Source: an uncultured Chloroflexia bacterium
GTDB taxonomy: Bacteria > Chloroflexota > Dehalococcoidia > UBA2979
Assembly: GCA_963728205.1 (NCBI GenBank)
Contig: CAVSIV010000006.1
Coordinates: forward strand, 320,001-384,000
DNA length: 64,000 nucleotides
Direction of reading: 5' to 3'
A program made the position numbers and the translations under genes. How positions within the stretch are numbered: the first letter of the stretch is position 1; the number at the start of each line of letters is the position of its first letter. This document shows, in pieces, positions 2,343-55,516 of the stretch. The notes under the pieces are model-generated. The model ran no database searches, was not told the DNA's origin, and saw only the letters and a program-made list of their open reading frames with translations.

Positions 2343-3368
2343 CTACGGCCCGCTCCCGCTCGGCGCCCACGCGACGACTGGCTCGCGGCTGAACCCAAAG
2401 TGAAAGTCGAGGCCGCCGAGCGCGGCGAGGTCGACCACCTCCCGGTTGGCCGTGCCGTCGTTCCGCATGACGCGCAGCGTCGCGCCCGCGAGGAACGCGA
2501 TCCACCCACCGTCGGGCGACGGCACCGGCGCGACGCCCGCCGTGATCGCGCGCATCGCGTTCGGGGTGCCGACACGGATCGGCGCGGCCTGGTGGAAGGA
2601 GCCAACGACCCACCGGTCGCCTGGAATCTCGGACGCGATCCCGCCGCTGCCGGCTACCAACCCGGCGATGGTCGTCGCGGATCCGTCGAGCCCGAACACG
2701 GTCACCGACGACGAGACGTTGCTCGCGGACACCGCGACCCGGTCGCTCGAGACCCATGTTCCCGTCATGAACGCGGCGTCGGACTTCGCCACCAGCCGCC
2801 GGTCCGTACCGTCGGCAGCCATCGTCCAGACCTCGTTCACGCCGCTGCCGCCGATGCGCGACATCCCGTACAGCAGGCGAGTCCCGTCGGGCGACCACGC
2901 GACGCGGTCCACGCCGATCGCGAACGGCACCCCCGGCAGCGAGAGGTCGTACCGGACCGTCCGCGCGACGGCCAGCTGGTGCGCGTGCGAGCCATCGGCG
3001 TCGGCGACCCAGATGTTGTAGCCCTGCACGAAGGCGAGCCGTGTCCCGTCCGGCGACAGTGACGGCGACCAGGCAGAGTTCATGAGGCCGTCGGGGCTGC
3101 CGTCGACGAGCTTCTGCAGGTGCGATCCGTCCGCGTCGACCGAGTAGATGCTCCCGCCGGCGGCGAAGAGGAGCGTGGCCGCCGGCGGCGCCGGCTCGGA
3201 CGTTGCAGGCGGCGATGCCGCGACCGTGGGCGTCGCGGTGACGCGGGAGGGTGTGCTCGCGTCCACCGGCTTCGACGGACGCGTCGGCCTCCCGCTGCAC
3301 GCGGCGACCAGCAGCAGAGCGGCGAGAAGCCACACTGGCCTCCCGCGGCGCCGCGGCGGTTGGATCAC
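2343..3368 (-). CDS. TolB/PD40-like beta-propeller lipoprotein
   Basis: GTG overlaps upstream TGA; lipobox LLVAAC; SPSLSPDGTRLAF, WSPDGTRL and PSPDGGWIAF repeats. Confidence 0.75.
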   Translation of the reverse strand: MIQPPRRRGRPVWLLAALLLVAACSGRPTRPSKPVDASTPSRVTATPTVAASPPATSEPAPPAATLLFAAGGSIYSVDADGSHLQKLVDGSPDGLMNSAWSPSLSPDGTRLAFVQGYNIWVADADGSHAHQLAVARTVRYDLSLPGVPFAIGVDRVAWSPDGTRLLYGMSRIGGSGVNEVWTMAADGTDRRLVAKSDAAFMTGTWVSSDRVAVSASNVSSSVTVFGLDGSATTIAGLVAGSGGIASEIPGDRWVVGSFHQAAPIRVGTPNAMRAITAGVAPVPSPDGGWIAFLAGATLRVMRNDGTANREVVDLAALGGLDFHFGFSREPVVAWAPSGSGP

Positions 3369-5177
3369 GGGGTCGCCCCCGGCGCCGGCGCGGTGCCGAC
3401 GTCGATGATGCCGATCACCTGAAGGCTGCGGCCGGGCGCGACCGTCTCCCCGCCCACGAGCAGCGTCGCGGGCGGGTCGGACGTCGACAGGCAGTCGTCG
3501 GGCGCGCGCAGCACGCCAAACCGGGGATACCCGGGCTCGACGCGCCCGCGGCACTCGAACGCGATAGCGCGCCCGCCGTACCACCGCGTGAGCACAGCGA
3601 GGGGGTCCGCCACCGGGCGCGGCGGCGCGCCGTCGGTGGCGACCAGGAGCCACGACGGCGGCGCGATCGCCCACTGGCAGCTCGCCGCCTCGTCCGGGTC
3701 CGAGGGGTACGGCCGCGCCTGGACGAGGAGCTCGGTCGAGTCGGGCGCCCACTCCCAGGGGAGGAAGGTGCGCGTCTCGTCGTGCAGTGTGTTCAGCGGG
3801 GCGCTCGAGTCGAGGTCCGTGATCCGCACGTCGTGCGTCGCGGCGGCCATACAGCCCAGGCTCCCGCGCACCTCTGCCACGCGCCGGCCGCTCGGCGCGA
3901 GGTAGGTCCACCCGGTGGTGTCGTGGATGGTGACCGTGCCGCCGGGCCACGCGGTCGCGAGACCCGCGGGCCCCTCGAGCGAGCGGACGAGGTCGATGAC
4001 CACGCCCCGCCCGTCGTCGTGCCATCCGTGTGGCTGGATGAACCGCGACGGCGCCGCGGGAATCGCGTCCGCGGTGATGCGCCACTGCTCGCGCCCCGAG
4101 GCGACGTCGTAGACGGCAACCGCGTCGGGGAACGGGCTGTCCGCGCTGGTCTCGAGTGCCACCGCGAGCGAGCGCCCATCCTGGGACACGGCCATCCCGC
4201 TCACGCTTCCGTAGGAGCCATCGCGCGGCGGGGACGCGTCGAGCAGCGTCCGCAGGTGCGTCCCGTTGAGCGCGTAGACCTCGATTCGAGCGCTCGAAGT
4301 CGACGAGCAGCTCGTGGTTCGCGATCAGCACCTGGCTGGCGTAGTTGCCCACGCCGCCCAGGTCGAAGGATGCGACCTGGCGGTGCGCGCCGAGGTCGTA
4401 GGTGATGACCTCCAGCGTGGGCCAGAGGCGCCCGCGGACGACGCGGGTGAAGACGACCAGCGGGCCCACCGCGCCGACCGGCAGACCGTCCGCGAGCGCG
4501 ACCGGCGTCGGGGTCGGCGTCGGCGGCTCGTAGGTGATCGCGACCTGCACGTCCGACGCGGCGAGTGCGGCGCCGTCCGTTCGCATCCTCGCGGTGGCCG
4601 GCCGCTGCGCACGCAGGTAGCCGAGGAACTGCGCGTCGGCGATGTTGAGGACGATCCCGCCGTCGGACGGCGCGGCGTCGATCAGCGCAGACACCAGCGT
4701 GTACGGCGTCGGGGTGCCCGGGCCGTTCAGCAGCTGCGCGCGCACGTCGAGTTGCTCCATCAACGAGCCGGCGTCCGAATCGATCTGCCGAGCGCCAGGC
4801 GGCTTCGTGTGCGTGGCGGCGAGCTCGACGATGCGTCCGTTGAGCTCGAAGTCGGCACGCCAGGCGTACTCGACGGCGCCGTCCGGGGTGCCAGCGAGGT
4901 TCCATGAGACTTCGCGGACGAACGGGGTCGGGAACCAGAAGCGCGCGGCGTCGGCGTCGACGCGCGCCCACGGGGTCGGGGCGGGGCTCGGGGCGCCCGA
5001 GGGTGTCCCCGATGTGCGAGCGGCGCCGGGGGCGGTTGCGGAGCCGAAAGCGGACGGCGACCCCGGCGGCGCGCTCGTGCAGGCGGCAAGCGCGGCCACG
5101 AGCAGCAGCGTCGCGAACGAGGCGCGCACCGCATGCAGCCGCGCGCCCACAGCCAGCGCACCGCATCGCGCGCTCAC
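3365..5177 (-). CDS. Two-domain lipoprotein with C-terminal beta-propeller (frameshift ~4280)
   Basis: Lipobox AALAAC in one frame; continues in ORF 3365..4204 (VSQDGR, WEWAPDS); GTGA overlap with upstream gene. Confidence 0.6.
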
Positions 5178-7061
5178 GGCGTCGCTCCCGGCCCGCGCCA
5201 CCACGCGCAGTACTCGTCCCAGCCCGTGTGCCCGTAGAACCCGAACCAGCCCGGGGCGAGCGACGACCCGCTGTCCGCGCCGAGCGAGAGATTGGCGACC
5301 TTCACGGCGCCGCCGCCCGACGACGGCATCAGCCAGAGCGATGCCGCGTCGCCGGACGCCGCGAAGCGCGCGAAGAGGATCGCCGAGCCGTCCGCCGACC
5401 AGAGCGGACGCTCGTCGCGGTAGCCGGCGTCGGGCGTGAGCTGGCGCGCGTGCGAGCCGTCGGGCCACATCAGCCAGATGCGACGCGCGTTCAAGCCCGC
5501 GTGCGCGGGGTCGCCGCCGCCGACCCGCCCGATGTCCGGCGCGCTCGCGTAGGCGATCTCCGTCCCGTGCGGCGAAGCAGCTGGCTCGAGCGCCGCGACC
5601 GACGCGTCGGTGAGGTCGACGACCTTGCCCGTCGCGGCGTCGACGGCGGCGATCCGCTTGTTCGTCCACGTCTCGCGGTCGGGACCGGCGGTCAGCAGGA
5701 ACGGAGACACCTTGCCGATCTCGTCCATCAGATCGGGGTAGGTCAGCGCGGCGTCGACGAGCGTGCGCGGCGGCCCGTGCCCGTCGGCGGCGACGGCACG
5801 CAGGCCGAGCCCGTCGGCGCCGATCGAGGCCGAGAAGGCCGGGTCGACGAAGTACAGCAGGTCCTTCCCGTCGTCCGACCAGCCGACCAGGACGATGCCA
5901 TCGCCGGCCTTGATGTCGGTGTGCAGGACCGGCGTCTCCGCGAGCCCCGGCAGGTCGACGACGGTGAGGCTGGACGCCCACTGCTTCGGCACAGGTCCGG
6001 CGGGACGGTTCGCCGCGGCCGCGATGCGCCGCCCATCCGGGCTCCACGCGACGTACTGCGGCACCGCGTCGAGCGGGACCGGTTGTCGCCACGCGCCGTC
6101 GGCGCTCTCGAGGACCAGGCCGCCGGGGTCACGGCAGGCGAGCGCGTCCGCGATGGGTGACCACGCGAGGCACCCGGCCGCGGTGCGCCACTCGCCGCCA
6201 TCGGCGCGGACCACGACGTCACCCGCGAGGATCCACTCCCCGGAGGGCGACCAGCGCGGCGAGGAGGCGTGACCGGAGTCGAGGATCTCGCGCGGCGTGC
6301 CGTCGGGCAGCGCGCGCACCCAGAGGTTGCCGTCCTGGACGTAGGCGAGCGTGCCGAGGTCGGTTGCGCCGCCTGCCGTCGGCGGCACGCGGGTGAGCGA
6401 GTCGGCGATCCGTGCAATGTCTGCGGGGGTGAGATCGAACGAGAACGCGCGGATGGAGTAGAACTCGCCCTGCCCGTGCCAGCTCACGATGTAGCCGGGT
6501 GCCCCATCGGTGTCCTGGCTCGGGCTGATCGTGACCGAGGTCGCGACGCCGCGGACCGTCACAGGCTGCGACGTCATGCCGGGTCCGCCGGGGAAGTTCC
6601 CCCACTGCCCCATGCTGAACCAGATGTGCTCGTGCCGGCTCGGAGGTGTAGCCGATTGCGTAGACAGGCCCGAGGCCCAACACGTCGTCGATGCATGCCT
6701 GCACCAGCCGCGGCTCTCCGAAACGGGCGGGAAGGTCGCGAGGACGCAGGACGGCGATGTCGGCTGGGAGCCGCGCGCGGGCTCTCGTCCAGGCGTCCTG
6801 ATCGTTCGGCGCGGGTGGGAAGTCGTAACACTTCGGATTGGGTTGGGGGGTGACCGTGGGCGGTGGGGTCGCGAACGGCGCGGCGACCGCGCCCGTCACG
6901 GCCGGCGTGCTGGTCGCGGTCGCGGCGGTTGCGGTCGCAAGCGCGCTCGTCGCGGAGGCCGTCGCGTTCGGCACGCCTGACCGGCAGCCGGCGAGCACCA
7001 GGAGCGTGCCGGCGAGCAGCGCCGGCAATCCGCGTCGCGCGGACCGTCGTGGCGTCATCAC
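5174..7061 (-). CDS. Lipoprotein with C-terminal TolB-like propeller (frameshift ~6625)
   Basis: N-terminal LLVLAGC lipobox in 6219..7061; WSPSG/WSPDG/WSADG repeats in 5174..6613. Confidence 0.65.
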
Positions 7062-7201: not shown

Positions 7202-7873
7202 TCACTCGAAGACGCAGAACTCCGCGTGTTCCATCGAGTATCCGCCGGTGGTAAGGCCGATCGTGAACTCCCCGACGACGACGCCATCGTCACTGACGAG
7301 GTTCCAGACCACCTGGGATGTCGTTGTGTTCGCCTCGACAAACGTGCCACGTGGGAGCGCGCTGAGGGTCTTGATGCCCTGATCGAGCGCGTCTCGCGGC
7401 GTCTCGGTTCCCGGAGCGCCGGGCGTGCGGTCGAAGACCTGGCTGCTGGCCTCACAGAAGCCGAGGCCGGGCGTCTTGCAGACGATGAGGAGCGGTTGCG
7501 GCGACAAGTCTTCCCCGACGCGCGACAACCAGCTTGCGTTCGCGAACGCGGGCGCTCCCACGGTGTAGCCAACGAACTTTCCCTTGACCGTCAGCCAAAC
7601 CGAGGACAGCGTGCAGCCCTGCTGTGCGGCCGCGACCTGCAGCGACTCCATCGTGCCGCCGCCCCACTCCACGAGCGCGACGCCGCCGGCCGTCCGTCCC
7701 GACGGCACGTCACCCGTCAGAGCGCCCTGCGCCGATGCTGAGTTTGGCGCGAGCACTGAGAGCATGAGCAGCGTCCCAACGACCGCGACAACCGGCCCGA
7801 GCCTCGCCAGTCGCCCTCTCCTCGATGCCCGCGTTCGGGCGCGCGTCGCCGGCAATCCGGCAGCTGTCTCCAT
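7202..7873 (-). CDS. Secreted protein with 'GAPxFAN' domain
   Basis: ATG overlaps upstream TAA; signal peptide ending ASA-Q; motif shared with 719..1453. Confidence 0.65.
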   Translation of the reverse strand: METAAGLPATRARTRASRRGRLARLGPVVAVVGTLLMLSVLAPNSASAQGALTGDVPSGRTAGGVALVEWGGGTMESLQVAAAQQGCTLSSVWLTVKGKFVGYTVGAPAFANASWLSRVGEDLSPQPLLIVCKTPGLGFCEASSQVFDRTPGAPGTETPRDALDQGIKTLSALPRGTFVEANTTTSQVVWNLVSDDGVVVGEFTIGLTTGGYSMEHAEFCVFE

Positions 7874-9895
7874 TAGTTCCCCCAGGCCGGACCTCGCAGC
7901 CACGTCGCATTCGAGAGCCGCGGCCGGAGGTCGAACGCTGCGCAGACGCCGCCGGAGCCGATGAGACGGCCGTCCGCGTCGAAGCCCAGCCACAACACCT
8001 TGTCGTACCCAAAGAGCGCCGCGTATCGAACCGGTGTCTCCGCGATCTCCATCACTCCGATGAGGTGGGGACCCAATCCCGAGGGGTCGAGGCTCGGCGC
8101 GAACGTGATCCCCGGAGCGACGAAGTGGACCGCCTCATCCGGACATCCGCCGGCCACGATTGCAGGCACCGACGTGCCTGCCGGCTTGCCCTCGGGGCAC
8201 TCCGGCGCGCGCTGTGGCGCGGGCTCCGGATTGACAACGCACGGTCCCGCCGTCGTCGATAGCAGCGCGCCGAGCCGTTCCCCGTCGCCGGCCAGCGCGG
8301 CATCTACCGCGGGCTGGATGTCGCCGGGCAGCGCGTTCGACGCGGTCGTTGGAGGTGCGAGCAGGAAGTTCGGTGCGCCATCGGTACTCGCGCGCCCGAT
8401 TTGCGTCGCGGGTGAGTCCTGCCCGCACCCGGTCTGGATCGTCGTGATGCCCCGATCGTTCAGGTAGAGCAGCAGCGCACCGTGCTGGGCGTCATTGCCG
8501 GCCGGGACGAGAACGGCGGCGACCTGGCCCCGGAAGAAGCCGTCGGTGGCAGGAGCGACCGGTCCGCGATCCACCACGGCATAGAGACGCCAGTCCACCG
8601 GGAGGAGGAAGTCGAGCAGCCCGTCCATTTCGTCACGACGCACATACCCGCCCTCGCACTGCGCCGACGGAAGCACGGCCACGGGCGCGCCCGGCGCCTC
8701 GTCCGCGCGACACAGCGGCGGTGAGCCGATGCCCGACGGCGCCACGACGCAGCCGACCTCGGAGAAGTCAATCGCCGCGACGAGCGCCGCACAATCCTTC
8801 GCTGCGAGCGCGTCGAGGACGGCGTCGACGGCCGCGACACCGGAGCGTCGACCCGGGTCGATGGCGGCGTCGCTCGCAGACGGGGGTGGGACGATAAAGG
8901 CGCGTGGCGGGTACGGCACGCATTCGGTTAGCAGCCCGACAATCTGTCCCCCCGCCTCCAGCAGGCCAGCCTGGGTCCACCGGTACGGCGCAGTCTCGAG
9001 CACAACCACCAGGAGGTGGTCGGCGGGCGGTTGAAAGCCGTCGGGCACGGTCGCGACGGCCTGCAGCGCGTACGCCTGGATGGCGAGGGACTCGAAGCGG
9101 CTTGCCACGTCGCCGGCGTCGAGCGACTGGTCGACGTTGCAGTGCCGCGCGGGAAGCGTGCCCTGCTTGTACCTCGCGGCCGCGGTGAGGGCCGCAGCGT
9201 CGTGTGCGGCGAGGGCGCCGACGAGCGTGTCCACCGAGGGCACGCCGGTCTCCGGGACGCCTGCCGCGAACGCGTAGCCGGCCGGCGGTTGCGGGAGGTC
9301 CTTCGCGGGCGGCAGCACGAGGAAGTCTTCCAGCGGGCCGCCGGCGGCGTAGCGCGGATCCTGCAGGATCGTCAGGTCGACGACGTCGTTGCCGGCGACC
9401 GCGAAGCGCCAGCCCTCGTGCGCCTCCGGGCTGTCGACGGCCAGCACGACGTCGACGGCGTGCCGCGGACCGGCCTGGGGTTGGTCGGGAGCGACGGCGT
9501 AGAGCGACCGCGCGGCCGCAGCCAGACGCGGTGCCCACTGGCTCGCGGGGAGCATGCGATCGTCCGTGGTCCCGCCGCCGGACTCGCGGGCGTCGAGGGT
9601 GCCGAAGCGCCGCTCGAGCGCCACTGCGTCGTCAGAGAGCAAGTGCTCGATGAGCGCATTGAGCGCCGGGTCGGAGGTGCGCCCGTCGGGCGCCATTGCC
9701 GGGGTGGCGGTCGGTGCCGCGTCCGCCGCAGTGGGAGAGGCCGTCCTGGCGGTGGTCGGCGAGGGAGAGGCGCCGGCCGATGTCGTCGGTGACGGGGCCG
9801 GAGCACGGCTGCTCGAGCACGCTGCCCCAGTGACGGCCGCGATCAGGATTCAGGAGGGCGGCGTACAGGCACGACCGTCGCGTGCGGAGCCTCAC
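7873..9895 (-). CDS. Lipoprotein with four tandem 'TGxxxVD..A..D..L' Cys-rich modules (frameshift ~9850)
   Basis: GTG at 9895 gives a signal peptide ending GAAC if one base near 9850 is removed; ORF 7873..9696 shows four related repeats. Confidence 0.65.
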
Positions 9896-10001: not shown

Positions 10002-11426
10002 TCACGGCCGCAGCCCCAGGAAGGCGTCCACGATCGGTGTCGTGAGCGAGGGCTGGTCGTCGGGGCCGCCGATGACCAGCAGGAGGTTCTCGTTGCGGTA
10101 GATGCGCGCACCGACGGTGCAGTCGACTGAACGGGAACGGTGGACGTCCGGCGCCCCCACCACCCCGTCCTGCCCCAGCACCCACTCTGACTCGAGATCG
10201 GCGATGGTCGGGTACACCCAGACCGTCACGTAGTGGAGCGAAGGCCCCTCTTCCGGCCACGGGCCGACGAGCTGCACCTCGGAAGCGCGCGACGTTCCGT
10301 ACGGGCACGCGGGCTGGAAGTACGGCGTGTAGTGGAAGCCGTCGGCCGCGAGCTGCTCGAGTAGCGGCGTCGCGCCCAGCGGCGCACCCGCCGGCGGCGG
10401 GACGATCGCGAACCCCGTCGTGTCCGATGGGAGCGGGTTCGACGACGGCCGCCCGAGCGTGAGAAAGGTGTCAACGAGCTCGGTCGTCCGCGGTTCGGCG
10501 TCGGGGACGAGCAATACGAGGTTCTGCTGGTGGTAGACGCGCGACGGCGCGCGGTCGCACACGAGCACGCGGTGCCGCGCGGCGAAGAGGTCGTCCACGA
10601 TCCACTCGCCCGCGGTCGCCGGCTCGTTCGGGTACACCCACAGGACAAAGTGCGCGTCGCCCGCGTACTCGATGCCCGGGCGGCCGTCGACCTGTTCACA
10701 TGCCGGGCTGCGTCCCGAGCGTCCGACCTGGATGCCGGACGCGGCAAGCGCGTCGATGTAGTCCGCCGCGGACCAGGGCGTCCCGGAGGAGCTCCACGCC
10801 GCGCCGGCAACGGGGACGTAGAGCGGCGGCTGCGGGATCCGGCGGCTCTCGCCGCTCGCATCGATCGAGGACACGACGAGGGCGACCTCCGACTGGCACA
10901 TCGTGCCGATCGGGAAGTCGTGGACCTGGAACGCGAGGTGGCCGGCCGCGTCGGCGGTCGCCCTCGCCAGTTCCGCGTAGTTGTCGACGGAGGACTGCAG
11001 GAACAGCACGGCGCCTTCACCGGGCAGGAACCCGTCCGCCGCGACGGTGGCGCCGGCGCGACAGACGAGCGGGTTGGGGCTGACCGAGAACGCGACCGGG
11101 GCGTGCGCCGCCGCGGTCGCGGTCGCAGTCGCCGTTGCGCCGACCTGCGCCGGTGTCGCGGTGCTCGCCGTCCCTCCGAGGGCGGGCGGTGGGATGGGGG
11201 TGACGGAGGCGGGCGCTGCCAGTGGGGTCGGTGCGGTGCGAGCGCCGGCAAGCGTGGCTGCGCCCGTGGGCGACGAAGTCCCCACGCGCTCCGGGGTGGT
11301 GCACGCGCCCGCGAACAGGGCGAGCGCCAGCGCCGCTGCGAGGCCCACGCGGAGCGCACTCGGGCGACGCCGGGCGTGCGCGGCATGCCATCCCGCCGGG
11401 GGCTGTGGTCGGGTGTCGAGGTCCAT
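10002..11426 (-). CDS. Lipoprotein with Ig-like segment and two tandem 'WVYP...EW...R(V/I)Y...NL' repeats
   Basis: GGAG RBS before ATG 11426; lipobox LFAGAC; internal duplication. Confidence 0.65.
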   Translation of the reverse strand: MDLDTRPQPPAGWHAAHARRRPSALRVGLAAALALALFAGACTTPERVGTSSPTGAATLAGARTAPTPLAAPASVTPIPPPALGGTASTATPAQVGATATATATAAAHAPVAFSVSPNPLVCRAGATVAADGFLPGEGAVLFLQSSVDNYAELARATADAAGHLAFQVHDFPIGTMCQSEVALVVSSIDASGESRRIPQPPLYVPVAGAAWSSSGTPWSAADYIDALAASGIQVGRSGRSPACEQVDGRPGIEYAGDAHFVLWVYPNEPATAGEWIVDDLFAARHRVLVCDRAPSRVYHQQNLVLLVPDAEPRTTELVDTFLTLGRPSSNPLPSDTTGFAIVPPPAGAPLGATPLLEQLAADGFHYTPYFQPACPYGTSRASEVQLVGPWPEEGPSLHYVTVWVYPTIADLESEWVLGQDGVVGAPDVHRSRSVDCTVGARIYRNENLLLVIGGPDDQPSLTTPIVDAFLGLRP

Positions 11427-11640
11427 CGCTCCGCCGAATTCGTGCTGTGCGCCGCCAGCCCAGCTCTGGTGAGAACGCGCTTGCGCGCTCGTAGGTTCCA
11501 CGCGCCCGCGAGGCGCTATCGCTCCAGGCGCGGCTCCTCCTGCAACGGATGCAGCGAGCGGACGCGACCCGGTTCCACGACGCGCGCCGCGAGGTGACGA
11601 TGTCACCGCGATGTAGCGGCTCGCGCTGCCCGCAAATCAT

Positions 11641-11660
11641 GTACGCCGCGGCGTACGTCA
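11641..11660 (-). promoter_or_regulatory. Operator-like motif TGACGTAY-N8-GTAC, copy 1
   Basis: Plus strand GTACGCCGCGGCGTACGTCA with a perfect 16-bp palindrome; lies within a leader shared with 47064-47150. Confidence 0.6.
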
Positions 11661-11697
11661 GGGTCGAGGGACGGGGCGCTGGTCGCGGGCGCGCGGC

Positions 11698-35206: not shown

Positions 35207-35223
35207 AACGTGAAAAGTTCATG

Positions 35224-35254: not shown

Positions 35255-35298
35255 GTCGCGTCTAGGATAAACCTAGCCTAGCACTCGAAGCGAGAACT

Positions 35299-46056: not shown

Positions 46057-46910
46057 TCCGCGCTGGCCGCGAGCTGCTGCGGCGCGACCCGGTAGACCGA
46101 TCGGCCCAGGTCTTCGTCGACCCACGCTCCGTCGACGCCGCGCCGCCGGGTGGTTCCCACGGTCATGAGCTCGCCACGCCGGACCGGCGCGGTCACGAGG
46201 AGTTGCACGCGCGAGGCGAGGGGGCGCGGGCTCCGCAGCGTCGCCGTCACACCCGCGCCGTCGAGGGCGACCGAGAGCCGCACGGGCCACGGGTGCGGGT
46301 TCGAGAACCGCAGATCGCGGTAGGCGTACTCGATCGTGGCGTCGCGTCCGAGCAGGTAGTACCGCTCGTCGCCGTAGGTATCGACGCTGTGACAGTGCCG
46401 CTCCTCGATGCGCAGGTCGCCGAGCAGCGCGGCGTTGTAGACGACCGTCGAGAGCAGGCAGGTCGACCCGCCAACCTCGCTCACGAGCCGGCCGCCGACG
46501 AGCGCCGCGCCGGGCCGGTACCCGCGTCGGGCGGTCGGCTCGCCGGCGAGCCGCCAGAGCGACCACGTCTCCCCGGGCGCGAGCAGGGTGCCGTCGAGCG
46601 CCGCGCCCATGACCCGCAGGTTGTGGCGCTTGTCGGCGGCGAAGCGCGCCTGCCCGGGGTAGTCGTGGACCGGGAGCCGATACGAGGCGATCTCGTGGGG
46701 CCAGCCGTTCGCGCCGTCGCGCCCCGCGGCGAACCGAACGCCACGGTCGTGCCACCAGCGGCGTGCGACCGCGAGGCGCAGTCGCCAGCGGCGCGGCACC
46801 CATCGTCGCGCGAGCCGGCGAGCGGCGCCCGTCGTCGCGCGGAGACGCGCGATCCCGCCGCGAACGACCGCGCGACGCGTCGAGCCGGCATGCGGCGAGA
46901 TTCGCACCAT
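46053..46910 (-). CDS. VanW-family protein
   Basis: KRHNL...GTLLAPGETWS...GGSTCLLSTVVYNAAL...ERHCHS...GRDATI...DLRFSN. Confidence 0.85.
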   Translation of the reverse strand: MVRISPHAGSTRRAVVRGGIARLRATTGAARRLARRWVPRRWRLRLAVARRWWHDRGVRFAAGRDGANGWPHEIASYRLPVHDYPGQARFAADKRHNLRVMGAALDGTLLAPGETWSLWRLAGEPTARRGYRPGAALVGGRLVSEVGGSTCLLSTVVYNAALLGDLRIEERHCHSVDTYGDERYYLLGRDATIEYAYRDLRFSNPHPWPVRLSVALDGAGVTATLRSPRPLASRVQLLVTAPVRRGELMTVGTTRRRGVDGAWVDEDLGRSVYRVAPQQLAASAE

Positions 46911-47123: not shown

Positions 47124-47143
47124 GTACGCTGCGGCGTACGTCA
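47124..47143 (-). promoter_or_regulatory. Operator-like motif, copy 2
   Basis: Plus strand GTACGCTGCGGCGTACGTCA between the divergent VanW operon and LuxR gene. Confidence 0.6.
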
Positions 47144-47167
47144 GGGCCGACCAAATCACCCGGAACC

Positions 47168-48712
47168 ATGCCGCCGCTCCTGGATCGCACCCTCATCGAT
47201 GCCGCGCGCGAAGCCATGCGCCGCGCCTACCCGGACCATCCGTGGCGCGAGCCATACCGGGAGGCGGTGGCGTGTGCGTACCAGGCGGGAGATCTCGCGG
47301 CGGTCGCGGAGCTGAGCGTCCTCGCGGCCGCGCACCTCTCCGGCGAGGCGCGCATCGCGGAGGCCATCGCGGAGGTGGAGCACGGGCTGGCGCTCGCCGC
47401 CGGCCATCCGGCGTCGCAGGCCCACCTGCTCCGCGCGCGTTCGAGCCTGGAGCTGTTTGCCGACGACCCCACGGTGGCGCTGCACACGCTCGAGCAGGCC
47501 GCCGCGGTCGACGTTCCGGACCCCGGCGCCCGGGATCGCGCGGACCGCGCGATTCGCGAGGTGATCGCCCGCTGCGTCTGCCTGCGGGCGGTGCGACCGG
47601 AGGAGTTCGACGCCGTGCGGCTGCTCGCCGAAGGCACGGACTTCGACTGGCTCGCGACCGGCCTCAAGCAATGGGTGGCCCCGTACCTGCTGGCATCCGG
47701 CCATCCTCGCGAGGCCGGGCCGTGGGCCGAGTCGCTCACGACCCACGCACGTGCGCGGGGGTCCAGCTGGCGCATGGCGGATGCGGCGGCGCAGGTGCGG
47801 GAGGTGAGCGCGGCGCGCGGCGAGCGCCCCGCGCCGGCGGGTGCCGACCTGCTGCCGGGCGGGACGAACGGTCCGGCAATCTGGGCCACGGCGGCGCTCG
47901 ATCTGCACCAGGCGCTGATCCGCGCGGACGCCGCCGCAGCCGACGAGGCGCTGGGCCGCCTGACCCCGGGGCGGATCCTCGCGCCGCCGGCACTGGGTCA
48001 GCCGCGGCGGGCGTTCGAGGCGCTGGTGGTCGCGCTCGACGGCGGGCGTGCGCCGCCGCTGGAGTGCCCCGAACAGCCGAGCCTCCTCAACCTGAGCAGC
48101 GTGCTTGCCGCCGCGGAAGCCGTCGCCGTCGGCGGCTCGCAGGAGGACGCGGTCCGCTGGACGCGGTGGCTGGACGGACGGCTCCCCGACTCGATTGAGA
48201 GTTGCCCCGACTGGCCGGTGTCCGTGCATCGCATCCGGGCGCTGCTCGCCGCGCGCGCGGGCGACGTCCGCCACGGCGTCGCCCGCATGCGGCTCGCCGT
48301 CGCCTGGGCGGACGCCGCCCGGCAGCCCGTGGAGGCGGCGATCGCGCGGGTGCAGCTCGCCGAGCTGATCGCCGTCGCGCCTCGCGCGATCGCCCGCCGG
48401 CAGTGGCTCACGATCCGCGACGACGGACGGTCCGGGTGCCGGGCGCTGGCGCTGCCATACCCGCTGCACGCGCACATCGCGGCGTCGGCCGCGGCGCTCG
48501 GGCGCTTCGACTGCGAGCGGCCCCAGCTGGCGCCGCGCGAGATCGAGGTGCTGGGGCTGCTCGCGGAAGGCGAGACGTACCAGCGGAGTGCGGCGCGGCT
48601 GGGGCTGAGCTGGCGGACGGTGCAGACGATCGCTCACCGCGCCTACCAGAAGCTCGGCGTCGCAAATAAGACGCAGGCGATTAGCGAGGCGCGCGAGCTG
48701 GGTCTGCTGTGA
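47168..48712 (+). CDS. Large LuxR-family regulator (helical N-terminus, C-terminal HTH)
   Basis: LAPREIEVLGLLAEG...LGLSWRTVQT...YQKLGV. Confidence 0.8.
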   Translation: MPPLLDRTLIDAAREAMRRAYPDHPWREPYREAVACAYQAGDLAAVAELSVLAAAHLSGEARIAEAIAEVEHGLALAAGHPASQAHLLRARSSLELFADDPTVALHTLEQAAAVDVPDPGARDRADRAIREVIARCVCLRAVRPEEFDAVRLLAEGTDFDWLATGLKQWVAPYLLASGHPREAGPWAESLTTHARARGSSWRMADAAAQVREVSAARGERPAPAGADLLPGGTNGPAIWATAALDLHQALIRADAAAADEALGRLTPGRILAPPALGQPRRAFEALVVALDGGRAPPLECPEQPSLLNLSSVLAAAEAVAVGGSQEDAVRWTRWLDGRLPDSIESCPDWPVSVHRIRALLAARAGDVRHGVARMRLAVAWADAARQPVEAAIARVQLAELIAVAPRAIARRQWLTIRDDGRSGCRALALPYPLHAHIAASAAALGRFDCERPQLAPREIEVLGLLAEGETYQRSAARLGLSWRTVQTIAHRAYQKLGVANKTQAISEARELGLL

Positions 48713-48939: not shown

Positions 48940-49774
48940 GTGACCGCACCGCGATCCCGTCGCGCGTTGCGCATCGCGCTGAGCGTGCTCATCGCGGGCA
49001 CCCTGGGCGCCGCTGTGGGCTGCGGCGCAACCCCGTTCGCGCACCCAGCGGGGCCCGCGAGTCCTCCGGCCCCCACCACGGTCGTGACCGGCGGGGCCGA
49101 CCTCCGGCCGCCGTCCTCCGCCGCGCCCACGCCCAGCGGCTCCGCGACCGCCGCGGCGGCGGTCCTCATCGACTGGGTCAACTTCGTGCAGTTCGGCGGG
49201 ATCCAGTACCTCGCCGTCATCCCGTCCGCGCCCGTGGATCCCACGACCGTCGGCCCACATGTCGCCACAGTTCGCCACCGTGCAGGTCAATATCGCGGGC
49301 GTCGTGACCGACCCGTCATACCGGCCACAGGACGGCGACTCCAGCTTCCTCGACGCGGGCACGCCCGTGTACATGCTTCGCGGCTACGACGCGCGCTTCC
49401 GGCTGGTCGCGCCCCACGGCAGCGGTTGGGTGCTGTACGAGGCCGACCGCAACCCGGCGGCCAGGCGCGGTGAGGACCTGCTCGACATCCGAGGCCGCGT
49501 GGCCGCCGTCGAGCTGGACGCCACCGACGGCCGGCCGCTGACCACGGTCAGCGATCCCTCGCAGATCGAGACGCTCCTCAACCTCGTGCTCGACGCGCCC
49601 GTCGACCAGTCCGAGGCGACCGGGTCGGGGCCGCGCTTCTTCATCGTGTTCCACCTCCAGGACGGGACCGAGGCGTCGCGGGCCTACTGGCCGGAGTCGG
49701 GGCTACTCGAGCGAGGCGTCCACCTGCCGTCGTCGTTTGCCGCCGCGCTCGAGCGGGCGCTGCCGGCGTCGTAG
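48940..49774 (+). CDS. Lipoprotein (frameshift ~49275)
   Basis: AAVGC lipobox; IDWVNFVQFGGIQY then DGDSSFLDAGTPVY..GY in the next frame. Confidence 0.65.
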
Positions 49775-49860: not shown

Positions 49861-50574
49861 ATGCATGGATTGCGCGTGGCGTCGGTCGCAGCCGTCGCCG
49901 TTCTCGGGTTCGCCGTGGCGGCCTGCTCGAGCAGCCAGGGTCGGCGGACCGCCGCGACCGCCTCGACCACGGCTCCCGTCGGGACCTCGCCGACGGCGGC
50001 GATCGCCTCGAACTCTCCGACGTCGCCCGCCAGACCGACGGCGTTTCCCACGGCAGCGCCAACTGCCACCGGCTATCCGCACGGGACGACCACCGGCAAC
50101 ACCGTCGTCGACCAGCTCGCGGATGCATTCATCAAGCAAGACATCGCCCGACTCCTTGACCTCGCTCGCTACGAGCAAGCGTCATGTGCCACGACCACGA
50201 CGACTGACTGGAACGGGCCGCCACCACCGTGTCCGACTGGAGTGGTTCCGGGTACCCCCGTGAAGTTCATGACGCTGGTTTCTTGTCATGGGCTCGTACG
50301 TGGGCCCGACGACCTCGCGCTCAGCCTGCGTGTTGTTTCGTCGGACATCCGGCTCTTCGCCGTCGCGAAGGCGGAGGGCGACTCAGATCCACGTGCCGAA
50401 TACCACGTGTTCTTCTCGATGGCCGTGGGGCGTGAAGCCGACAACTGGGGAGTCGAATTCGTGACCGGCGCGGGTGGCTTCATTCATGTCAAGGGCGGAT
50501 GCGGAACCAGTGCATCGCAGATGAGCGCCGGTGTCCCACCAACTGCGTTCCTGCTTCCGCCAAGTCCACAGTGA
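49861..50574 (+). CDS. Lipoprotein with one Cys-rich module
   Basis: AVAAC; TTGNTVVD..A....D..L...Y..ASC...PPPCPTGVVPGTPV...SCHG...GGCG. Confidence 0.7.
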   Translation: MHGLRVASVAAVAVLGFAVAACSSSQGRRTAATASTTAPVGTSPTAAIASNSPTSPARPTAFPTAAPTATGYPHGTTTGNTVVDQLADAFIKQDIARLLDLARYEQASCATTTTTDWNGPPPPCPTGVVPGTPVKFMTLVSCHGLVRGPDDLALSLRVVSSDIRLFAVAKAEGDSDPRAEYHVFFSMAVGREADNWGVEFVTGAGGFIHVKGGCGTSASQMSAGVPPTAFLLPPSPQ

Positions 50575-53845: not shown

Positions 53846-54123
53846 GGTCCACAACCGTCCCGCGGCTGGCGATCCCATATGCGTTGCGGGATGACAACTC
53901 GCCGTGAGTCTGACACGGTCGGCGTGGTGGCGCCGGGGGAGGTGCAGATGCGCGTCGCGACCATCGCGCTCGTTCCCCTCCTCCTTGTCGCTTCGATCCC
54001 GGTCACTGCCGGCCGGGTCGCCCCACAAGCAACCGAGCCGATAGCGATCGCGGGTGTGCCGCGTCTTGTCCTCGAGTGCATGCGGCTCGCGCCGCCGCTT
54101 CGTCCCTGCGCGCCCGCCGCATC

Positions 54124-55516
54124 GTGACGAAGCGCGTGAAGACGATCGCCGCTGGGGGCGGGTTGGCGCTGGTGGCCGTCGCGGTGCTCGCGATCGCCCT
54201 CTCCCACCGCGGCGCCGGGGCGCCGGCCGCTGCCTCCGCCACCGTCACGGCGACCCCCACGACTGCGGTCGCGGCGACCGCGCCGCCGACCGCCGGTCCC
54301 ACCGAGGCGCCGGCCCTGCCGGTCGCGCTGCGCAGCCGGCTGGCGAGGATGCCGGGCGTCGGCGACGTGCTTGCGGCCGTCGAAGCCGCGGACGCCGACC
54401 GCCTGGTGACGCTCACCTTCCACCAGCCGGGCTACTGCGGGTTCGTGCCGACCGACGTCACGCCGGCGCCGGTGGCACCCGCCGACGCGTACCGCGCGAG
54501 CAACGCCTGCCGCGCACCCGGCGTCTCTACATACGAGGGCATCGCGGTCGCGGCCGACCTCCCGGGCGCGCTCAACGCCGGGCTGGAGCTCTGGAACGAC
54601 GCGGCCTTCGCGACCGCCGCCCGCGCCCTCTTCGGCGCGCACCCGCGACTCGCGTCGGTCTCGGATCGCGCCTATCGCCTGCCCGCCTCCGACGGCACCG
54701 CGTTCGAGGTCCGCCATCGCTACACGCTCTGGTACGCGCTCGCCGCCGACCCCGGGATCACGGGCGCGCCCACCGGAGACGCCGCCGACGGCGGCCAGTC
54801 GACCGAGCCTGTGAATGGCTTCGCGCTCGAGGTCGACACGGGAGAGGCGCAGCCGGTCGCGGCCCTCGAGCTCCTCCATCGTGAAACGTGGCCGGCGCCC
54901 GACACCGTCGACGCGCAGCCGCCGCCCCGCCGCGTCACGCAGGACGCCGGCGCCTCCGTGCGGTCCGCGCTCGCGGCGGTGCCGGGCGTGCGCGACGTGA
55001 TCGCGGCCGCGGACGCCGGCGACGTCGACGCGCTCCTCGCGCTCTTCCAGACGCACGAGGCGATTCTGCATCCGGCCGCCGCTCCCGGGCCACGAGACGC
55101 CGGAGCTATGCGACGACGTCGGCGACCCGCCCGGCGACCGCTACACCGCGTTCACGATGGACGTCGGCACGACGTTCCCGGCGAGCCGGCAGCGCACCCG
55201 CGCGCTGATCGGCGCGCTGTTCATCGGCGGACCGCCGCGCCTCGAGGGCGCGTGGCGCCTGGTCCGGCGGCAGAACGGCGCCGTGGTCGGCGACATCTAC
55301 TACGTGGCGCTCGCCGGCCTCGAGTTCGAGGCGCCGCGCGCGCGGCTCTCGCTCGGCGCTTACTCGTGGGACTCCGTCGTGCTCGCGGTCGACCCAAGCG
55401 CGCCGCAGCCGATCGCGTCGTTCGCGATCCGGAGCCCTCGGTACCCGGCGTCAGTCATGGTGGAGTCGTTCGCGCGCGGCGCGAGCGCGGGAAGCACGCT
55501 CGAGCCGGTGCGGTGA
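54124..55516 (+). CDS. Membrane-anchored protein with two diverged 'PGV.DV..A..A.D.D.L' modules (frameshift ~55080)
   Basis: N-terminal TM; internal duplication related to the Cys-rich module family. Confidence 0.55.

What the first reader, a model, noticed from the sequence alone, without database searches (positions are those of the whole stretch)
2343..55516. Candidate system: a modular extracellular-domain library wired to membrane-spanning LuxR receptors and M23-like effector cassettes
Seen: about 25 exported or lipoprotein genes drawn from a few recurring domain families (TolB-like propeller, BNR, Cys-rich module, ligand-less Rieske, GAPxFAN). These occur alone, in tandem, fused to one another or as fragments. 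A propeller also forms the ectodomain of a LuxR-HTH/TM protein, and two of the families sit immediately downstream of M23-like secreted enzymes. The region has five LuxR-type genes and a shared operator motif. Inference: a diversifying surface sensing/defence locus, in which interchangeable binding domains act either as free lipoproteins (immunity or decoy) or as receptor ectodomains that control the regulon.
Basis: partly seen in the sequence, partly recalled or inferred. Interest (0 to 1): 0.8.

Follow-up and report, generated by a model that had tools for sequence, protein, structure and literature searches.

The report
Membrane-tethered LuxR sensors and lipoprotein kin
This stretch of a high-GC Chloroflexota chromosome is a rearranging, partly decayed cluster of single-pass membrane LuxR-type regulators and exported proteins built from the same outside-facing domains, which points to an undescribed, modular family of bacterial surface sensors rather than a proven working system.

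Summary
About 25 exported genes (14 lipobox, about 10 signal or anchor) fall into recurring families: PD40 propellers, BNR-like propellers, a four-Cys module, ligand-less Rieske-like domains and an unnamed propeller-like family. Five LuxR-type HTHs are present.

The LuxR-HTH/TM/PD40 gene is real but split by an IS21 element. An intact 568-aa relative spans both halves. The second LuxR-TM gene is truncated at a duplication junction.

The "shared operator" is one palindrome present twice, inside a duplicated 143-bp segment. "M23-like" remains a lead only: no Pfam or PDB hit and an unusable model.

The key new result is that the HTH-TM module belongs to a large family (290 hits). Of the 120 listed, 116 have a TM segment near residue 100. 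Their ectodomains fall into 34 clusters. Twelve of 38 island proteins match those ectodomains, against 0 of 21 controls. Five of 73 long homologues of the Cys module carry an N-terminal GerE domain. Near-identical HTH-TM modules carry unrelated ectodomains.

So domain sharing between tethered regulators and free lipoproteins is supported. Wiring, immunity, decoy and defence roles are not. The local copies are decaying through IS insertion, frameshifts and gene fragmentation. I rate it a new variant of membrane-tethered one-component signalling.

The parts
2343..3335 (-). PD40-repeat lipoprotein (lipobox ..LLLVAAC). Its C-terminal ~146 aa are 55% identical to the fragment at 20410-20862.
   Evidence: Pfam PD40 33 bits. 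Paralogy. Hits the LuxR-TM ectodomain of P0202 at 5.8e-17.
3365..5130 (-). Lipoprotein of an unnamed propeller-like family ('f6'). The reading frame changes near 4280, so it is a probable pseudogene.
   Evidence: Signal peptide and lipobox read in frame at 4146-5201. Codon-phase switch. tblastn to LuxR-TM proteins P0211 and P0182 on both sides of ~4280. 30% identity to residues 194-488 of GerE-TM protein P0107.
5174..6613 (-). PD40 propeller protein without a detectable signal peptide. It is 47% identical over 400 aa to the ectodomain of LuxR-TM protein P0181.
7202..7765 (-). Secreted protein with the GAPxFAN motif. Its only relative in the window is 719-1342.
   Evidence: 33% over 75 aa, E 3e-4
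7873..9696 (-). Multi-module protein with two full four-Cys modules plus partial ones. Residues 2-449 align with the whole ectodomain of GerE-TM protein P0033. An in-frame stop lies 9 codons before a lipobox-like ..TGAAC.
   Evidence: 39% identity, E 1e-87
10002..11348 (-). Lipoprotein of unknown family. It is 40% identical over 255 aa to the ectodomain of LuxR-TM protein P0247.
11530..11667 (.). Copy (82.5% identity) of the vanW/luxR intergenic segment, carrying the palindrome GTACGCCGCGGCGTAC at 11641-11656.
12970..14826 (+). Two exported Rieske-like proteins (12970-14127 and 14311-14826) that lack the full CxH..CxxH ligand set.
   Evidence: Ligands read by eye.
15155..15588 (+). 5' half of the LuxR-HTH/TM/PD40 gene: GerE HTH at residues 17-70 and TM at 97-115.
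   Evidence: 81% identity to P0004 residues 1-149
15589..18026 (+). IS21-family element (istA 15729-17189, istB 17186-18049). It has terminal inverted repeats and a 6-bp direct repeat GCCGGG at 15583-15588 and 18027-18032.
   Evidence: Pfam rve, Mu-transposase_C_2 and IstB. Inverted repeats. Ends and duplication read by eye.
18027..19287 (+). 3' half of the same gene: the PD40 ectodomain.
   Evidence: (78% identity to P0004 residues 145-566)
20410..20862 (+). Propeller fragment, a paralogue of the C-terminus of 2343-3335.
20950..22149 (-). BNR/Ycf48-like propeller lipoprotein.
   Evidence: Pfam PSII_BNR 88 bits
22408..23064 (-). Lipoprotein with no family assignment.
24370..28273 (-). Low-GC cassette 1. 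It holds a small LuxR HTH (27752-28063), a secreted protein (26345-26953), an M23-like secreted protein (25644-26441) and an f6-family lipoprotein (24370-25620). Transposase fragments (23427-24466) lie beside it.
   Evidence: GC 0.60-0.62
28274..29463 (.). Two pasted duplications. 28274-28518 copies 30728-30958 at 91% identity (promoter and signal peptide of the Rieske-like lipoprotein). 28519-29463 copies 43038-43982 at 96% identity (REC gene plus the 3' end of the beta-lactamase-like gene).
29464..30249 (-). Second LuxR-HTH/TM gene. Its ectodomain is cut off at the duplication junction.
   Evidence: GerE 48 bits. TM at 103-121. Junction. It was the query.
30347..30862 (-). Rieske-like lipoprotein.
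31563..32162 (-). Duplicated 3' fragment of the PD40 gene 39439-40800 (95% DNA identity).
32359..35982 (+). Low-GC cassette 2. It holds a small LuxR HTH (32359-32571) and an M23-like secreted protein (33864-34643). The next gene is an overlapping-start exported protein (34643-35206), which matches the C-terminus of the ectodomain of LuxR-TM P0172. Last is a four-Cys-module lipoprotein (35299-35982). Transposase fragments (36067-36851) lie beside it.
   Evidence: GC 0.55-0.64
37024..38856 (-). Lipoprotein. The N-terminal ~400 aa are 31% identical to the ectodomains of LuxR-TM proteins P0199, P0197 and P0176. The C-terminus is a four-Cys module.
39439..40800 (-). PD40 propeller, 31% identical over ~450 aa to the ectodomain of LuxR-TM P0190. 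It has no convincing signal peptide.
41011..42596 (-). BNR-like lipoprotein whose frame changes near 42200. It matches the ectodomains of P0226, P0205, P0223 and P0222.
43123..46799 (-). Cell-envelope gene row: VanW-like, CapA/PGA_cap-like lipoprotein, class-A beta-lactamase-like lipoprotein and a single-domain receiver.
47124..48712 (+). Palindrome GTACGCTGCGGCGTAC (47124-47139), about 30 bp upstream of a 514-aa soluble LuxR-type regulator (47168-48712, C-terminal HTH, no TM).
48940..49774 (+). Lipoprotein gene whose frame changes near 49260, at an imperfect 10-bp tandem repeat.
49870..50574 (+). Four-Cys-module lipoprotein.
54076..55516 (+). Membrane-anchored protein with weak matches to the N-terminal part of the Cys module. 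The frame changes near 54990.
   Evidence: (E 1e-4 and 0.037)

Best explanation
WHAT IT IS.
The region is a fluid accessory stretch of a roughly 72% GC chromosome. The organism is most likely class Dehalococcoidia (Chloroflexota). The stretch has accumulated members of one lineage-expanded signalling family and their exported relatives.

The family is a single-pass, membrane-tethered one-component regulator. It has:
- a LuxR/GerE helix-turn-helix at the N-terminus, in the cytoplasm;
- one transmembrane helix near residue 100;
- a variable extracytoplasmic domain of about 330 residues.

The same outside domains are also encoded as stand-alone lipoproteins or secreted proteins. These include PD40 and BNR-like propellers, an unnamed propeller-like domain, a disulfide-type four-Cys module with an NTF2-like predicted fold, and others.

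HOW IT EVOLVES (shown).
- Ectodomains are swapped on a conserved HTH-TM cassette.
- Domains switch between tethered and free forms.
- Genes are duplicated, and cassettes are acquired by horizontal transfer (the two low-GC cassettes).

HOW IT LIKELY WORKS (inferred, not shown).
The ectodomain would bind an envelope-derived or external ligand. That would change dimerisation or proteolytic release of the tethered HTH, which would then regulate nearby genes. This is how ToxR/CadC-type regulators work. The free paralogues would be binding proteins that act on their own or as co-sensors.

STATE OF THE LOCAL COPIES.
In this genome the local copies are largely in decay. One receptor is split by IS21 and the other is truncated. 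At least four exported genes are frameshifted and several are fragments. The locus is therefore better read as a birth-and-death zone of the family than as one wired machine.
For: ARCHITECTURE.
- GerE lies at residues ~15-70 and a TM at 97-121 in both window genes.
- The intact relative P0004 (568 aa, GerE + PD40) covers both halves of the split gene.

FAMILY SIZE AND SHAPE.
- 290 proteins match the HTH-TM module at E<=1e-3.
- Of the 120 listed, 116 have a TM-like segment starting at median residue 99, with a median of 330 aa after it.
- All 17 rechecked relatives have an N-terminal GerE.
- Many of the named sources are Dehalococcoidia MAGs. The nearest relatives of the flanking kinase are also Dehalococcoidia MAGs (50-51% identity).

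MODULARITY.
- 115 ectodomains fall into 34 single-linkage clusters.
- Among 83 proteins with ectodomains of at least 250 aa, 34 of 186 pairs with at least 80% identical N-terminal modules carry unrelated ectodomains. So do 268 of 282 pairs at 60-70% identity.
- The same-genome paralogue P0216 is 71% identical to P0004 up to '..EPGA' and unrelated beyond it.

SHARING WITH FREE PROTEINS.
- 12 of 38 island proteins match those ectodomains, against 0 of 21 controls.
- The Cys-module family has 599 representatives.
- The lipobox Cys is nearly invariant in 54 short members.
- Five of 73 long members carry GerE plus a TM.
- The module is predicted with confidence (pLDDT 85.5). Its best PDB matches are all NTF2-like, but weakly (E 2.5e-3, TM 0.45).

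FLUIDITY AND DECAY.
- IS21 with a target duplication.
- Segmental duplications.
- Frame changes.
- Transposase fragments and two toxin-antitoxin pairs.
- Low-GC cassettes.
Against: - Function is entirely inferred. No ligand, DNA target or regulon was identified, and no motif is shared by the promoters.
- Topology rests on a hydropathy heuristic, and signal peptides on my own rule set.
- The control set holds few exported proteins. Part of the enrichment may simply reflect domains that are common on this lineage's surface.
- Gene calls come from my own codon-statistics script.
- The frameshifts could be assembly errors. However, only 1 of 5 sites sits next to a homopolymer, and genes right of the tRNA look intact.
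- N-terminal similarity between paralogues with different ectodomains could come from gene conversion rather than ectodomain swapping.
- Clustering of receptors with free paralogues could not be examined in any other genome.
Confidence: 0.6

Rival explanations
1. The locus would be one integrated sensing/defence system. LuxR-TM receptors would read extracellular signals through interchangeable ectodomains and control a local regulon. Free lipoproteins would act as immunity factors or decoys, and M23-like enzymes would be the effectors.
For: - Domain sharing is real.
- Each M23-like gene is followed directly by family members and preceded by a small LuxR HTH gene in the same orientation.
- One palindrome is shared by the luxR 47168 promoter and the region upstream of lipoprotein 10002-11348.
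Against: - Both tethered receptors are disrupted.
- The shared palindrome lies in duplicated DNA and occurs only twice.
- No exported protein matches PADLOC.
- The M23 assignment is unproven.
- Many 'library' genes are frameshifted or are fragments.
Confidence: 0.12
2. The two low-GC cassettes would be horizontally acquired cell-wall hydrolase modules. Each would hold a secreted LAS/M23-type zinc peptidase with a co-transcribed exported inhibitor, immunity or partner protein, under a small GerE-type regulator. They would be functionally separate from the rest of the region.
For: - GC is 0.55-0.64 against about 0.72, and transposase fragments lie beside both cassettes.
- Gene order is parallel in the two cassettes.
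- The stop of 33864-34643 overlaps the start of 34643-35206.
- Both enzymes' nearest Atlas clusters are M23-named or carry PF01551 (scores 0.94-0.96).
- Conserved residues in the 7-sequence alignment are D85, H158, H219 and H221. The order H..D / H / HxH is that of LAS-type zinc peptidases (recalled).
- The few relatives include a Dehalococcoidia MAG.
Against: - No Pfam, NCBIfam or PDB hit, even with a profile.
- The model has pLDDT 39.
- Atlas shared-feature counts (149-174) are mostly below the 170 typical of true family members.
- The two enzymes are barely alignable to each other.
- The downstream proteins belong to the same families as the high-GC genes, so the cassettes are not clearly separate from the rest.
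Confidence: 0.3
3. The clustering would be incidental. The region would be a junkyard of unrelated, lineage-specific surface-protein paralogues, with IS elements and pseudogenes, under relaxed selection. The family resemblance would reflect only that propellers and similar folds are common surface domains.
For: - Pseudogenes, fragments, IS elements and toxin-antitoxin pairs are present.
- The PD40 members are mostly too divergent to hit each other.
- There is no shared promoter motif.
Against: - Matches to LuxR-TM ectodomains are specific and long. Examples are 47% over 400 aa, 40% over 255 aa and 39% over 488 aa.
- These matches involve nine different ectodomain clusters.
- No such match occurs in the 21 controls.
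- Two tethered receptors and three other LuxR genes lie in the same 53 kb.
Confidence: 0.2

Closest known systems
ToxR / CadC / VtrA-type membrane-tethered one-component regulators, including the VtrA/VtrC 'co-component' systems (Kinch et al. 2022, PMC9214523; abstract, introduction and outline seen)
   Same: The topology is the same: an N-terminal cytoplasmic DNA-binding domain, one TM helix and a C-terminal periplasmic sensor. The family is fast-evolving. A separately encoded periplasmic partner protein (VtrC, ToxS) gives a precedent for free paralogues that cooperate with the tethered sensor.
   Different: The DNA-binding domain here is LuxR/GerE (PF00196), not an OmpR-type winged helix. 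The ectodomains are large propellers, NTF2-like modules and so on, and are far more diverse (34 clusters among 115). No overlapping partner gene with a lipocalin-like fold was seen. The lineage is Chloroflexota, not enteric bacteria.
10-12-TM LuxR regulators of Coriobacteriia such as DadR (Dong et al. 2022, PMC9734109; passages seen)
   Same: Both are membrane-spanning LuxR-type transcription factors. Both are hugely expanded and diversified within one lineage (83 in one Eggerthella lenta strain). Both are encoded next to the genes they are thought to control.
   Different: The layout is the opposite. Those proteins have an N-terminal polytopic 10-12-helix sensor and a C-terminal HTH. These have an N-terminal HTH, a single helix and a globular C-terminal ectodomain.
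SigI/RsgI biomass-sensing anti-sigma factors of Clostridium thermocellum (PMC4711584, PMC6852018, PMC10328401; search listing and abstract openings only)
   Same: Both are sets of paralogous single-pass membrane sensors on a conserved cytoplasmic module. In both, the extracellular modules are drawn from the same domain families as the organism's secreted proteins.
   Different: RsgI proteins are anti-sigma factors that act through a partner sigma factor and regulated proteolysis. Here the DNA-binding domain is part of the tethered protein itself.
Peptidase M23 / LAS zinc peptidases (for the two 'M23-like' ORFs)
   Same: Both ORFs are secreted. Conserved His/Asp/His-x-His residues appear in the LAS order (the order is recalled). 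Their language-model neighbours are named M23.
   Different: There is no Pfam PF01551 match at E<=5. The first motif is H-x7-D rather than HxxxD. No usable structure was obtained.

Membership tests
LuxR/GerE HTH family (PF00196) | GerE-type helix-turn-helix above Pfam's gathering score | tested here: met
   Against a cut-off of 23.5 bits: 15155 scores 53.9, 29266 scores 48.1, 47168 scores 43.4 and 27752 scores 37.4. 32359-32571 was found by a window-built HMM and by tblastn.
Canonical LuxR regulators (quorum-sensing or response-regulator type) | C-terminal HTH with an N-terminal autoinducer-binding or receiver domain | tested here: not met
   In 15155 and 29266 the HTH is at residues ~15-71 and is followed by a TM helix. 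No autoinducer-binding or receiver domain is found in any of the five.
ToxR/CadC-type membrane-tethered one-component regulators | N-terminal DNA-binding domain, single TM helix and C-terminal extracytoplasmic domain | tested here: met
   By sequence prediction only. 116 of 120 relatives have a TM-like segment starting at median residue 99, with a median of 330 aa after it.
ToxR/CadC-type membrane-tethered one-component regulators | OmpR-type winged-helix DNA-binding domain | tested here: not met
   The DNA-binding domain is GerE.
10-12-TM LuxRs of Coriobacteriia | N-terminal domain of 10-12 TM helices with a C-terminal HTH | tested here: not met
   There are one or two TM-like segments, and the HTH is N-terminal. 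The definition is taken from PMC9734109.
VtrA/VtrC co-component systems | Tethered regulator gene overlapping a gene for a lipocalin-like periplasmic partner that forms an obligate heterodimer | not tested
Peptidase M23 (PF01551) | Match to the family profile | tested here: not met
   There are no hits at E<=5 for either ORF, nor for any of the 7 aligned relatives at E<=10. A profile search of PDB sequences gave 0 hits.
Peptidase M23 (PF01551) | HxxxD and HxH zinc/catalytic motifs on the LAS fold | tested here: inconclusive
   HxH (H219, H221), H158 and D85 are invariant in 7 sequences. The spacing of the first motif is H-x7-D. The fold could not be judged (pLDDT 39).
IS21 family | IstA transposase (rve) plus IstB ATPase helper, terminal inverted repeats and a target-site duplication | tested here: met
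   rve and Mu-transposase_C_2, and IstB_IS21 at 142.9 bits. 39-nt arms are 90% complementary. The 6-bp GCCGGG repeat was read by eye.
TolB | Equivalog-level match to TolB (TIGR02800, cut-off 343 bits) | tested here: not met
   Scores are 28-34 bits. These are PD40-repeat propellers, not TolB.
PD40 beta-propeller repeat (PF07676) | Repeat match above the gathering score | tested here: met
   Against a cut-off of 20.9 bits: 2343 scores 33, 5174 scores 39.9, 18079 scores 27.7 and 39439 scores 26.4.
Rieske [2Fe-2S] proteins | Profile match above the cut-off and CxH..CxxH cluster ligands | tested here: not met
   Rieske_2 scores 22.2 bits, below the cut-off of 27, at 30347 and 12.5 bits at 12970. 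The His ligands are missing by eye.
NTF2-like (SnoaL / ketosteroid-isomerase-like) fold, for the four-Cys module | Structural match to the alpha+beta cone | tested here: inconclusive
   The model has pLDDT 85.5. The top PDB matches (ranks 1-19) are ketosteroid isomerases, designed NTF2-like or curved-beta-sheet proteins and one polyketide cyclase, but only at E 2.5e-3 to 1e-2 and target-normalised TM about 0.45.
Known anti-phage defence systems (PADLOC) | Match of system components | tested here: not met
   Four of the 47 proteins hit. They are the Fic/Doc and DUF3368 toxin-like genes (candidate systems PDC-S23 and PDC-S70) and two domain-level matches (HTH of 15155; receiver 43123). None of the exported family proteins hit.

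The most novel reading that the evidence does not exclude
Dehalococcoidia-type Chloroflexota would run a cassette-exchange sensory system. A conserved LuxR-HTH/TM 'socket' would recombine, at a fixed juxtamembrane junction (..EPG..), with a chromosomal library of ectodomain 'plugs'. The plugs would be kept as lipoprotein genes. This would generate new surface receptors. The free lipoproteins would act as co-sensors or competitors of the tethered forms. The M23-like hydrolase cassettes would supply cell-wall-derived ligands. The IS21 sits exactly at that junction, and near-identical sockets carry unrelated plugs (34 of 186 pairs). Both facts are compatible with this reading, but they do not show it.
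Probability: 0.12. Interest if true: 0.8.

Novelty: new variant of a known kind. Interest (0 to 1): 0.55.

Why it matters
Most bacterial one-component regulators are thought to be cytoplasmic (recalled). The few well-studied membrane-tethered ones (ToxR, CadC, VtrA) use OmpR-type DNA-binding domains.

Here a LuxR/GerE domain sits on a single-pass tether and has been expanded into hundreds of variants with at least 34 kinds of outside domain. The lineage is little-studied, mostly uncultured Dehalococcoidia.

The same outside domains circulate as free lipoproteins. One of them is a very common module (599 cluster representatives) with no Pfam or NCBIfam match. It has four conserved cysteines and a confident NTF2-like predicted fold.

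If confirmed, this would give a simple and engineerable sensor architecture. It would also give a handle on what these organisms sense at their surface, and a natural example of domain shuffling between receptors and binding proteins.

I found no description of this architecture in seven full-text searches. The nearest was the 10-12-TM LuxR family of Coriobacteriia, which has the opposite topology.

Tried and rejected
- **Locus comparison in relatives.** The best loci were two Dehalococcoidia MAGs at 50-51% identity. They had no tRNA and no other shared gene within 10 kb on either side. The window's own genome was not in the collection. Variability of the locus therefore stays untested. None of the 79 fetched loci held a LuxR-TM gene.
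- **M23 identity.**
  - Pfam at E<=5, NCBIfam, and PDB sequence and profile searches all gave nothing.
  - tblastn against plasmids and phages gave no match.
  - AlphaFold on a 7-sequence alignment gave pLDDT 39, so I ran no fold search on it.
- **Enzyme-partner binding.** I tried complex prediction for the M23-like protein with its overlapping downstream protein.
- **Operator motif.** I searched for a shared 12-mer or palindrome across 47 intergenic regions. Only the copies inside duplicated DNA recur. Shuffled sequences give about 0.9 recurring palindromes against 3 observed, and all 3 lie in duplications.
- **Integration at tRNA-Lys.**
  - The tRNA 3' end is not repeated in the window.
  - No integrase domain appeared in the Pfam scan.
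  - The region lies on the 5' side of the tRNA.
- **Rfam.** Only the tRNA was found.
- **First gene caller.** My GC3-threshold caller missed low-GC genes and clipped starts. I replaced it with a codon log-odds caller plus manual gap filling.
- **P0005.** This hit looks like a garbled translation of the P0004-type gene, and I did not use it.

Full report
**Setting and gene map**

The window is about 72% GC, with two low-GC stretches: 24-28 kb at 0.60-0.62 and 32-36 kb at 0.55-0.64. One tRNA-Lys lies at 56275-56347.

High GC produces many false ORFs (279 of at least 100 aa). I therefore called genes with my own codon log-odds script and filled the gaps by codon-phase plots. These calls are my own and are not curated.

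Pfam on 83 ORFs gave the scaffold:
- PD40 propellers at 2343-3335, 5174-6613, 18079-19287 and 39439-40800.
- A BNR/Ycf48-like protein at 20950-22149.
- GerE HTHs at 15155, 27752, 29266 and 47168.
- An IS21 pair, istA and istB, at 15729-18049.
- Transposase fragments at 23975-24466 and 36067-36851.
- A gene row at 43123-46799: receiver, beta-lactamase-like, PGA_cap and VanW.
- Two toxin-antitoxin pairs at 1498-2103 and 51104-51897.

Right of the tRNA the genes look like ordinary core genes: a kinase, a receiver, CoaE and AlkA.

The flanking kinase's nearest relatives are two Dehalococcoidia MAGs (50-51% identity). Many named relatives of the island proteins are also from Dehalococcoidia MAGs. 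The organism is therefore most likely a high-GC member of that class. Its own genome was not in the species collection.

**Checking the observation**

*Exported genes.* A heuristic scan of N-termini finds 14 lipobox-type and about 10 signal or anchor N-termini. Six of the 31 ORFs examined have neither. This matches 'about 25 exported genes'.

*Recurring families.* All-against-all BLAST of 607 stop-to-stop ORFs and iterated HMMs confirm them.
- A module of about 150 aa with four conserved Cys occurs in 7873-9696 (tandem), 35299-35982, 37024-38856 (fused behind another domain) and 49870-50574. There is a weak match in 54076-55516.
- Three Rieske-like proteins lack the His ligands: 12970-14127, 14311-14826 and 30347-30862.
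- An unnamed propeller-like family ('f6') has members at 3365-5130 and 24370-25620.
- Two fragments are present: 31776-32162 and 20410-20862.
- GAPxFAN has only two members, one of them outside the coordinates, at a pairwise E of 3e-4.

*LuxR genes.* A fifth LuxR HTH lies at 32359-32571. A sixth lies outside the finding near 62983-63099.

**The LuxR-TM-propeller gene**

The PD40 ORF 18079-19287 has a 568-aa relative, P0004, at 78% identity. P0004 carries GerE plus PD40.
- Window 15155-15598 aligns to P0004 residues 1-149 at 81% identity.
- Window 18025-19287 aligns to P0004 residues 145-566 at 78% identity.

An IS21 element lies between the two halves. It has 39-nt terminal arms. By eye, its ends are TGTC...GACA at 15589 and 18026, and a 6-bp GCCGGG lies on each side. 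That duplication explains the overlapping 'EPG' residues in the two alignments.

In this genome, however, the gene is split.

The second such gene, 29266-30249, loses its ectodomain at 29463. At that point a 945-bp copy of 43038-43982 (96% identity) begins. Further pasted copies lie nearby: 28274-28518 matches 30728-30958, and 31563-32151 matches 39225-39814.

**The operator claim**

The only recurrent intergenic motif is the palindrome GTACGC(C/T)GCGGCGTAC. One copy is at 47124, just upstream of the soluble LuxR gene 47168. The other is at 11641. Both lie within one 143-bp duplicated segment.

A search of 47 intergenic regions found no other shared 12-mer or palindrome outside duplicated DNA. 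The palindrome is a plausible binding site for the 47168 regulator. It is not a regulon-wide signal.

**The M23 claim**

The two ORFs are 25644-26441 (full length with signal peptide) and 33864-34643.
- They have no Pfam, NCBIfam or PDB match, even with a profile.
- They have no plasmid or phage match.
- They have only five relatives among 5.8 billion clusters.
- The AlphaFold model is unusable (pLDDT 39).

Three things keep the idea alive.
- Conserved D85, H158, H219 and H221 appear in the LAS-peptidase order (the order is recalled).
- Both proteins have the same nearest Atlas clusters, scoring 0.94-0.96. These include clusters auto-named 'peptidase M23' and a cluster in which every member carries PF01551.
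- Both lie in low-GC DNA with parallel gene order: small LuxR HTH, then enzyme, then exported family members.

I treat 'LAS/M23-like hydrolase' as a lead, at roughly two chances in three.

**The main result**

I searched with the HTH-TM part of 29266-30249 (residues 1-125). This returned 290 proteins of 179-573 aa, of which 120 were listed.
- 116 of the 120 have a TM-like segment starting at median residue 99, with a median of 330 aa after it.
- Their precomputed Pfam labels include PD40, LysM, RodZ_C and DUF4367 (names confirmed). From accession numbers whose names I recall, they also include Kelch, RCC1 and LRR repeats.
- 115 ectodomains fall into 34 single-linkage clusters.

Twelve of 38 island proteins match these ectodomains at E<=1e-3, against 0 of 21 control proteins from the window. 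The control set holds few exported proteins. Many of the matches are long:
- 5174-6613 with P0181: 47% over 400 aa.
- 10002-11348 with P0247: 40% over 255 aa.
- 37024-38856 with P0199 and P0197: 31% over about 400 aa.
- 39439-40800 with P0190: 31% over about 450 aa.
- 41011-42192 with four proteins.

All 17 matched relatives that I rechecked have GerE at the N-terminus.

I also searched from the other side. The Cys-module lipoprotein 35299-35982 has 599 cluster representatives at E<=1e-3.
- Most are short lipoproteins. The lipobox Cys is nearly invariant in 54 aligned members.
- Five of the 73 listed members of at least 260 aa carry an N-terminal GerE followed by a TM segment.
- 7873-9696 aligns over residues 2-449 with the entire ectodomain of one of them (39% identity, E 1e-87).
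- The f6 gene aligns with part of another.

The module itself is predicted with confidence (pLDDT 85.5). Its top PDB neighbours are almost all NTF2-like, but only weakly (E 2.5e-3, TM about 0.45).

**Modularity**

I took the 83 relatives with ectodomains of at least 250 aa.
- Of 186 pairs with N-terminal modules at least 80% identical, 34 carry unrelated ectodomains.
- Of 68 pairs at 70-80% identity, 24 carry unrelated ectodomains.
- Of 282 pairs at 60-70% identity, 268 carry unrelated ectodomains.

A paralogue from the window's own contig, P0216, is 71% identical to P0004 up to '..EPGA' and unrelated after it. That is the same point at which the IS21 sits.

This pattern fits ectodomain swapping on a conserved cassette. 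Gene conversion of the N-terminal modules is an alternative that I could not exclude.

**Decay**

Codon-phase plots and translations show frame changes in 3365-5130 (about 4280), 41011-42596 (about 42200), 48940-49774 (about 49260) and 54076-55516 (about 54990). There may be another near 53010.

Only one of the five sites is next to a homopolymer. One lies at an imperfect 10-bp tandem repeat. Assembly error is therefore not the obvious cause, but I could not check reads.

7873-9696 has a stop nine codons before a lipobox-like Cys. With the two broken receptors and the fragments, much of the local gene set looks inactive.

**Interpretation**

Nothing supports the specific roles proposed.
- No exported protein matches a known defence component.
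- Variability of the locus among relatives could not be examined.

I therefore describe the region as a birth-and-death zone of a modular family of membrane-tethered LuxR regulators and their exported paralogues. The two horizontally acquired putative hydrolase cassettes use the same domain families.

**Comparison with what is known**

- In topology, the receptors work like ToxR/CadC/VtrA-type tethered regulators (PMC9214523; abstract, introduction and outline seen). They fail that family's defining winged-helix DNA-binding domain.
- They are LuxR-family proteins, but with the reverse layout of canonical LuxRs. They also have the reverse layout of the 10-12-TM LuxRs of Coriobacteriia (PMC9734109, passages seen).
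- The idea of a sensor set whose outside modules mirror secreted proteins resembles RsgI anti-sigma factors (search listing only).
- Seven full-text searches found no description of this architecture. That library lacks most subscription journals, and I consulted no supplementary files.

Noticed in passing
window 15583-15588 / 18027-18032, with P0216 and P0004: The IS21 insertion point coincides, to within a codon, with the boundary between the conserved HTH-TM module and the variable ectodomain ('..EPG|A..'). The same-genome paralogue P0216 loses similarity at exactly that point. This could be coincidence or a recombination-prone junction.
   Followed up: partly
window ~62983-63099 (+): A sixth LuxR-type HTH lies outside the finding, between the hydrolase-fold gene and alkA. 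It was hit by 77 of the 120 LuxR-TM relatives in tblastn.
   Followed up: no
window 33412-33855 (+): A short ORF inside low-GC cassette 2 has host-like codon bias and a weak OB-fold match (tRNA_anti-codon, E 1e-4). It looks like a C-terminal remnant of a DnaE2-type polymerase. That resemblance is recalled and not tested.
   Followed up: no
window 1498-2103 and 51104-51897: Two toxin-antitoxin-type pairs are present: RHH + Fic/Doc, and UPF0175 + DUF3368. The toxins match the PADLOC candidate systems PDC-S23 and PDC-S70.
   Followed up: partly
window 49255-49275: The frame change in lipoprotein gene 48940-49774 falls at two adjacent, similar 10-mers (8 of 10 identical by eye). This suggests a small tandem duplication as the inactivating event.
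   Followed up: partly
window 28274-28518 versus 30728-30958: The promoter and signal-peptide-coding start of the Rieske-like lipoprotein gene is duplicated and now abuts the small LuxR gene of low-GC cassette 1. The long ORF 27752-28354 therefore begins with residues copied from that lipoprotein.
   Followed up: partly
window 43123-46799 and P0240: A cell-wall theme recurs. VanW-like, class-A beta-lactamase-like and CapA-like genes sit beside a LuxR gene. A LuxR-HTH/TM protein with a LysM ectodomain (P0240) is listed with the same longest-contig length (1,872,144 bp) as the window's own proteins.
   Followed up: no
Examples are two LuxR-TM genes on a 4,569-bp contig, two on a 16,772-bp contig, and three each on 3.47-Mb and 2.01-Mb contigs. 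This hints that such genes are multi-copy and sometimes adjacent elsewhere.
   Followed up: no
P0005: A 545-aa database protein reads like an out-of-frame or error-ridden translation of the P0004-type gene. I did not use it.
   Followed up: no
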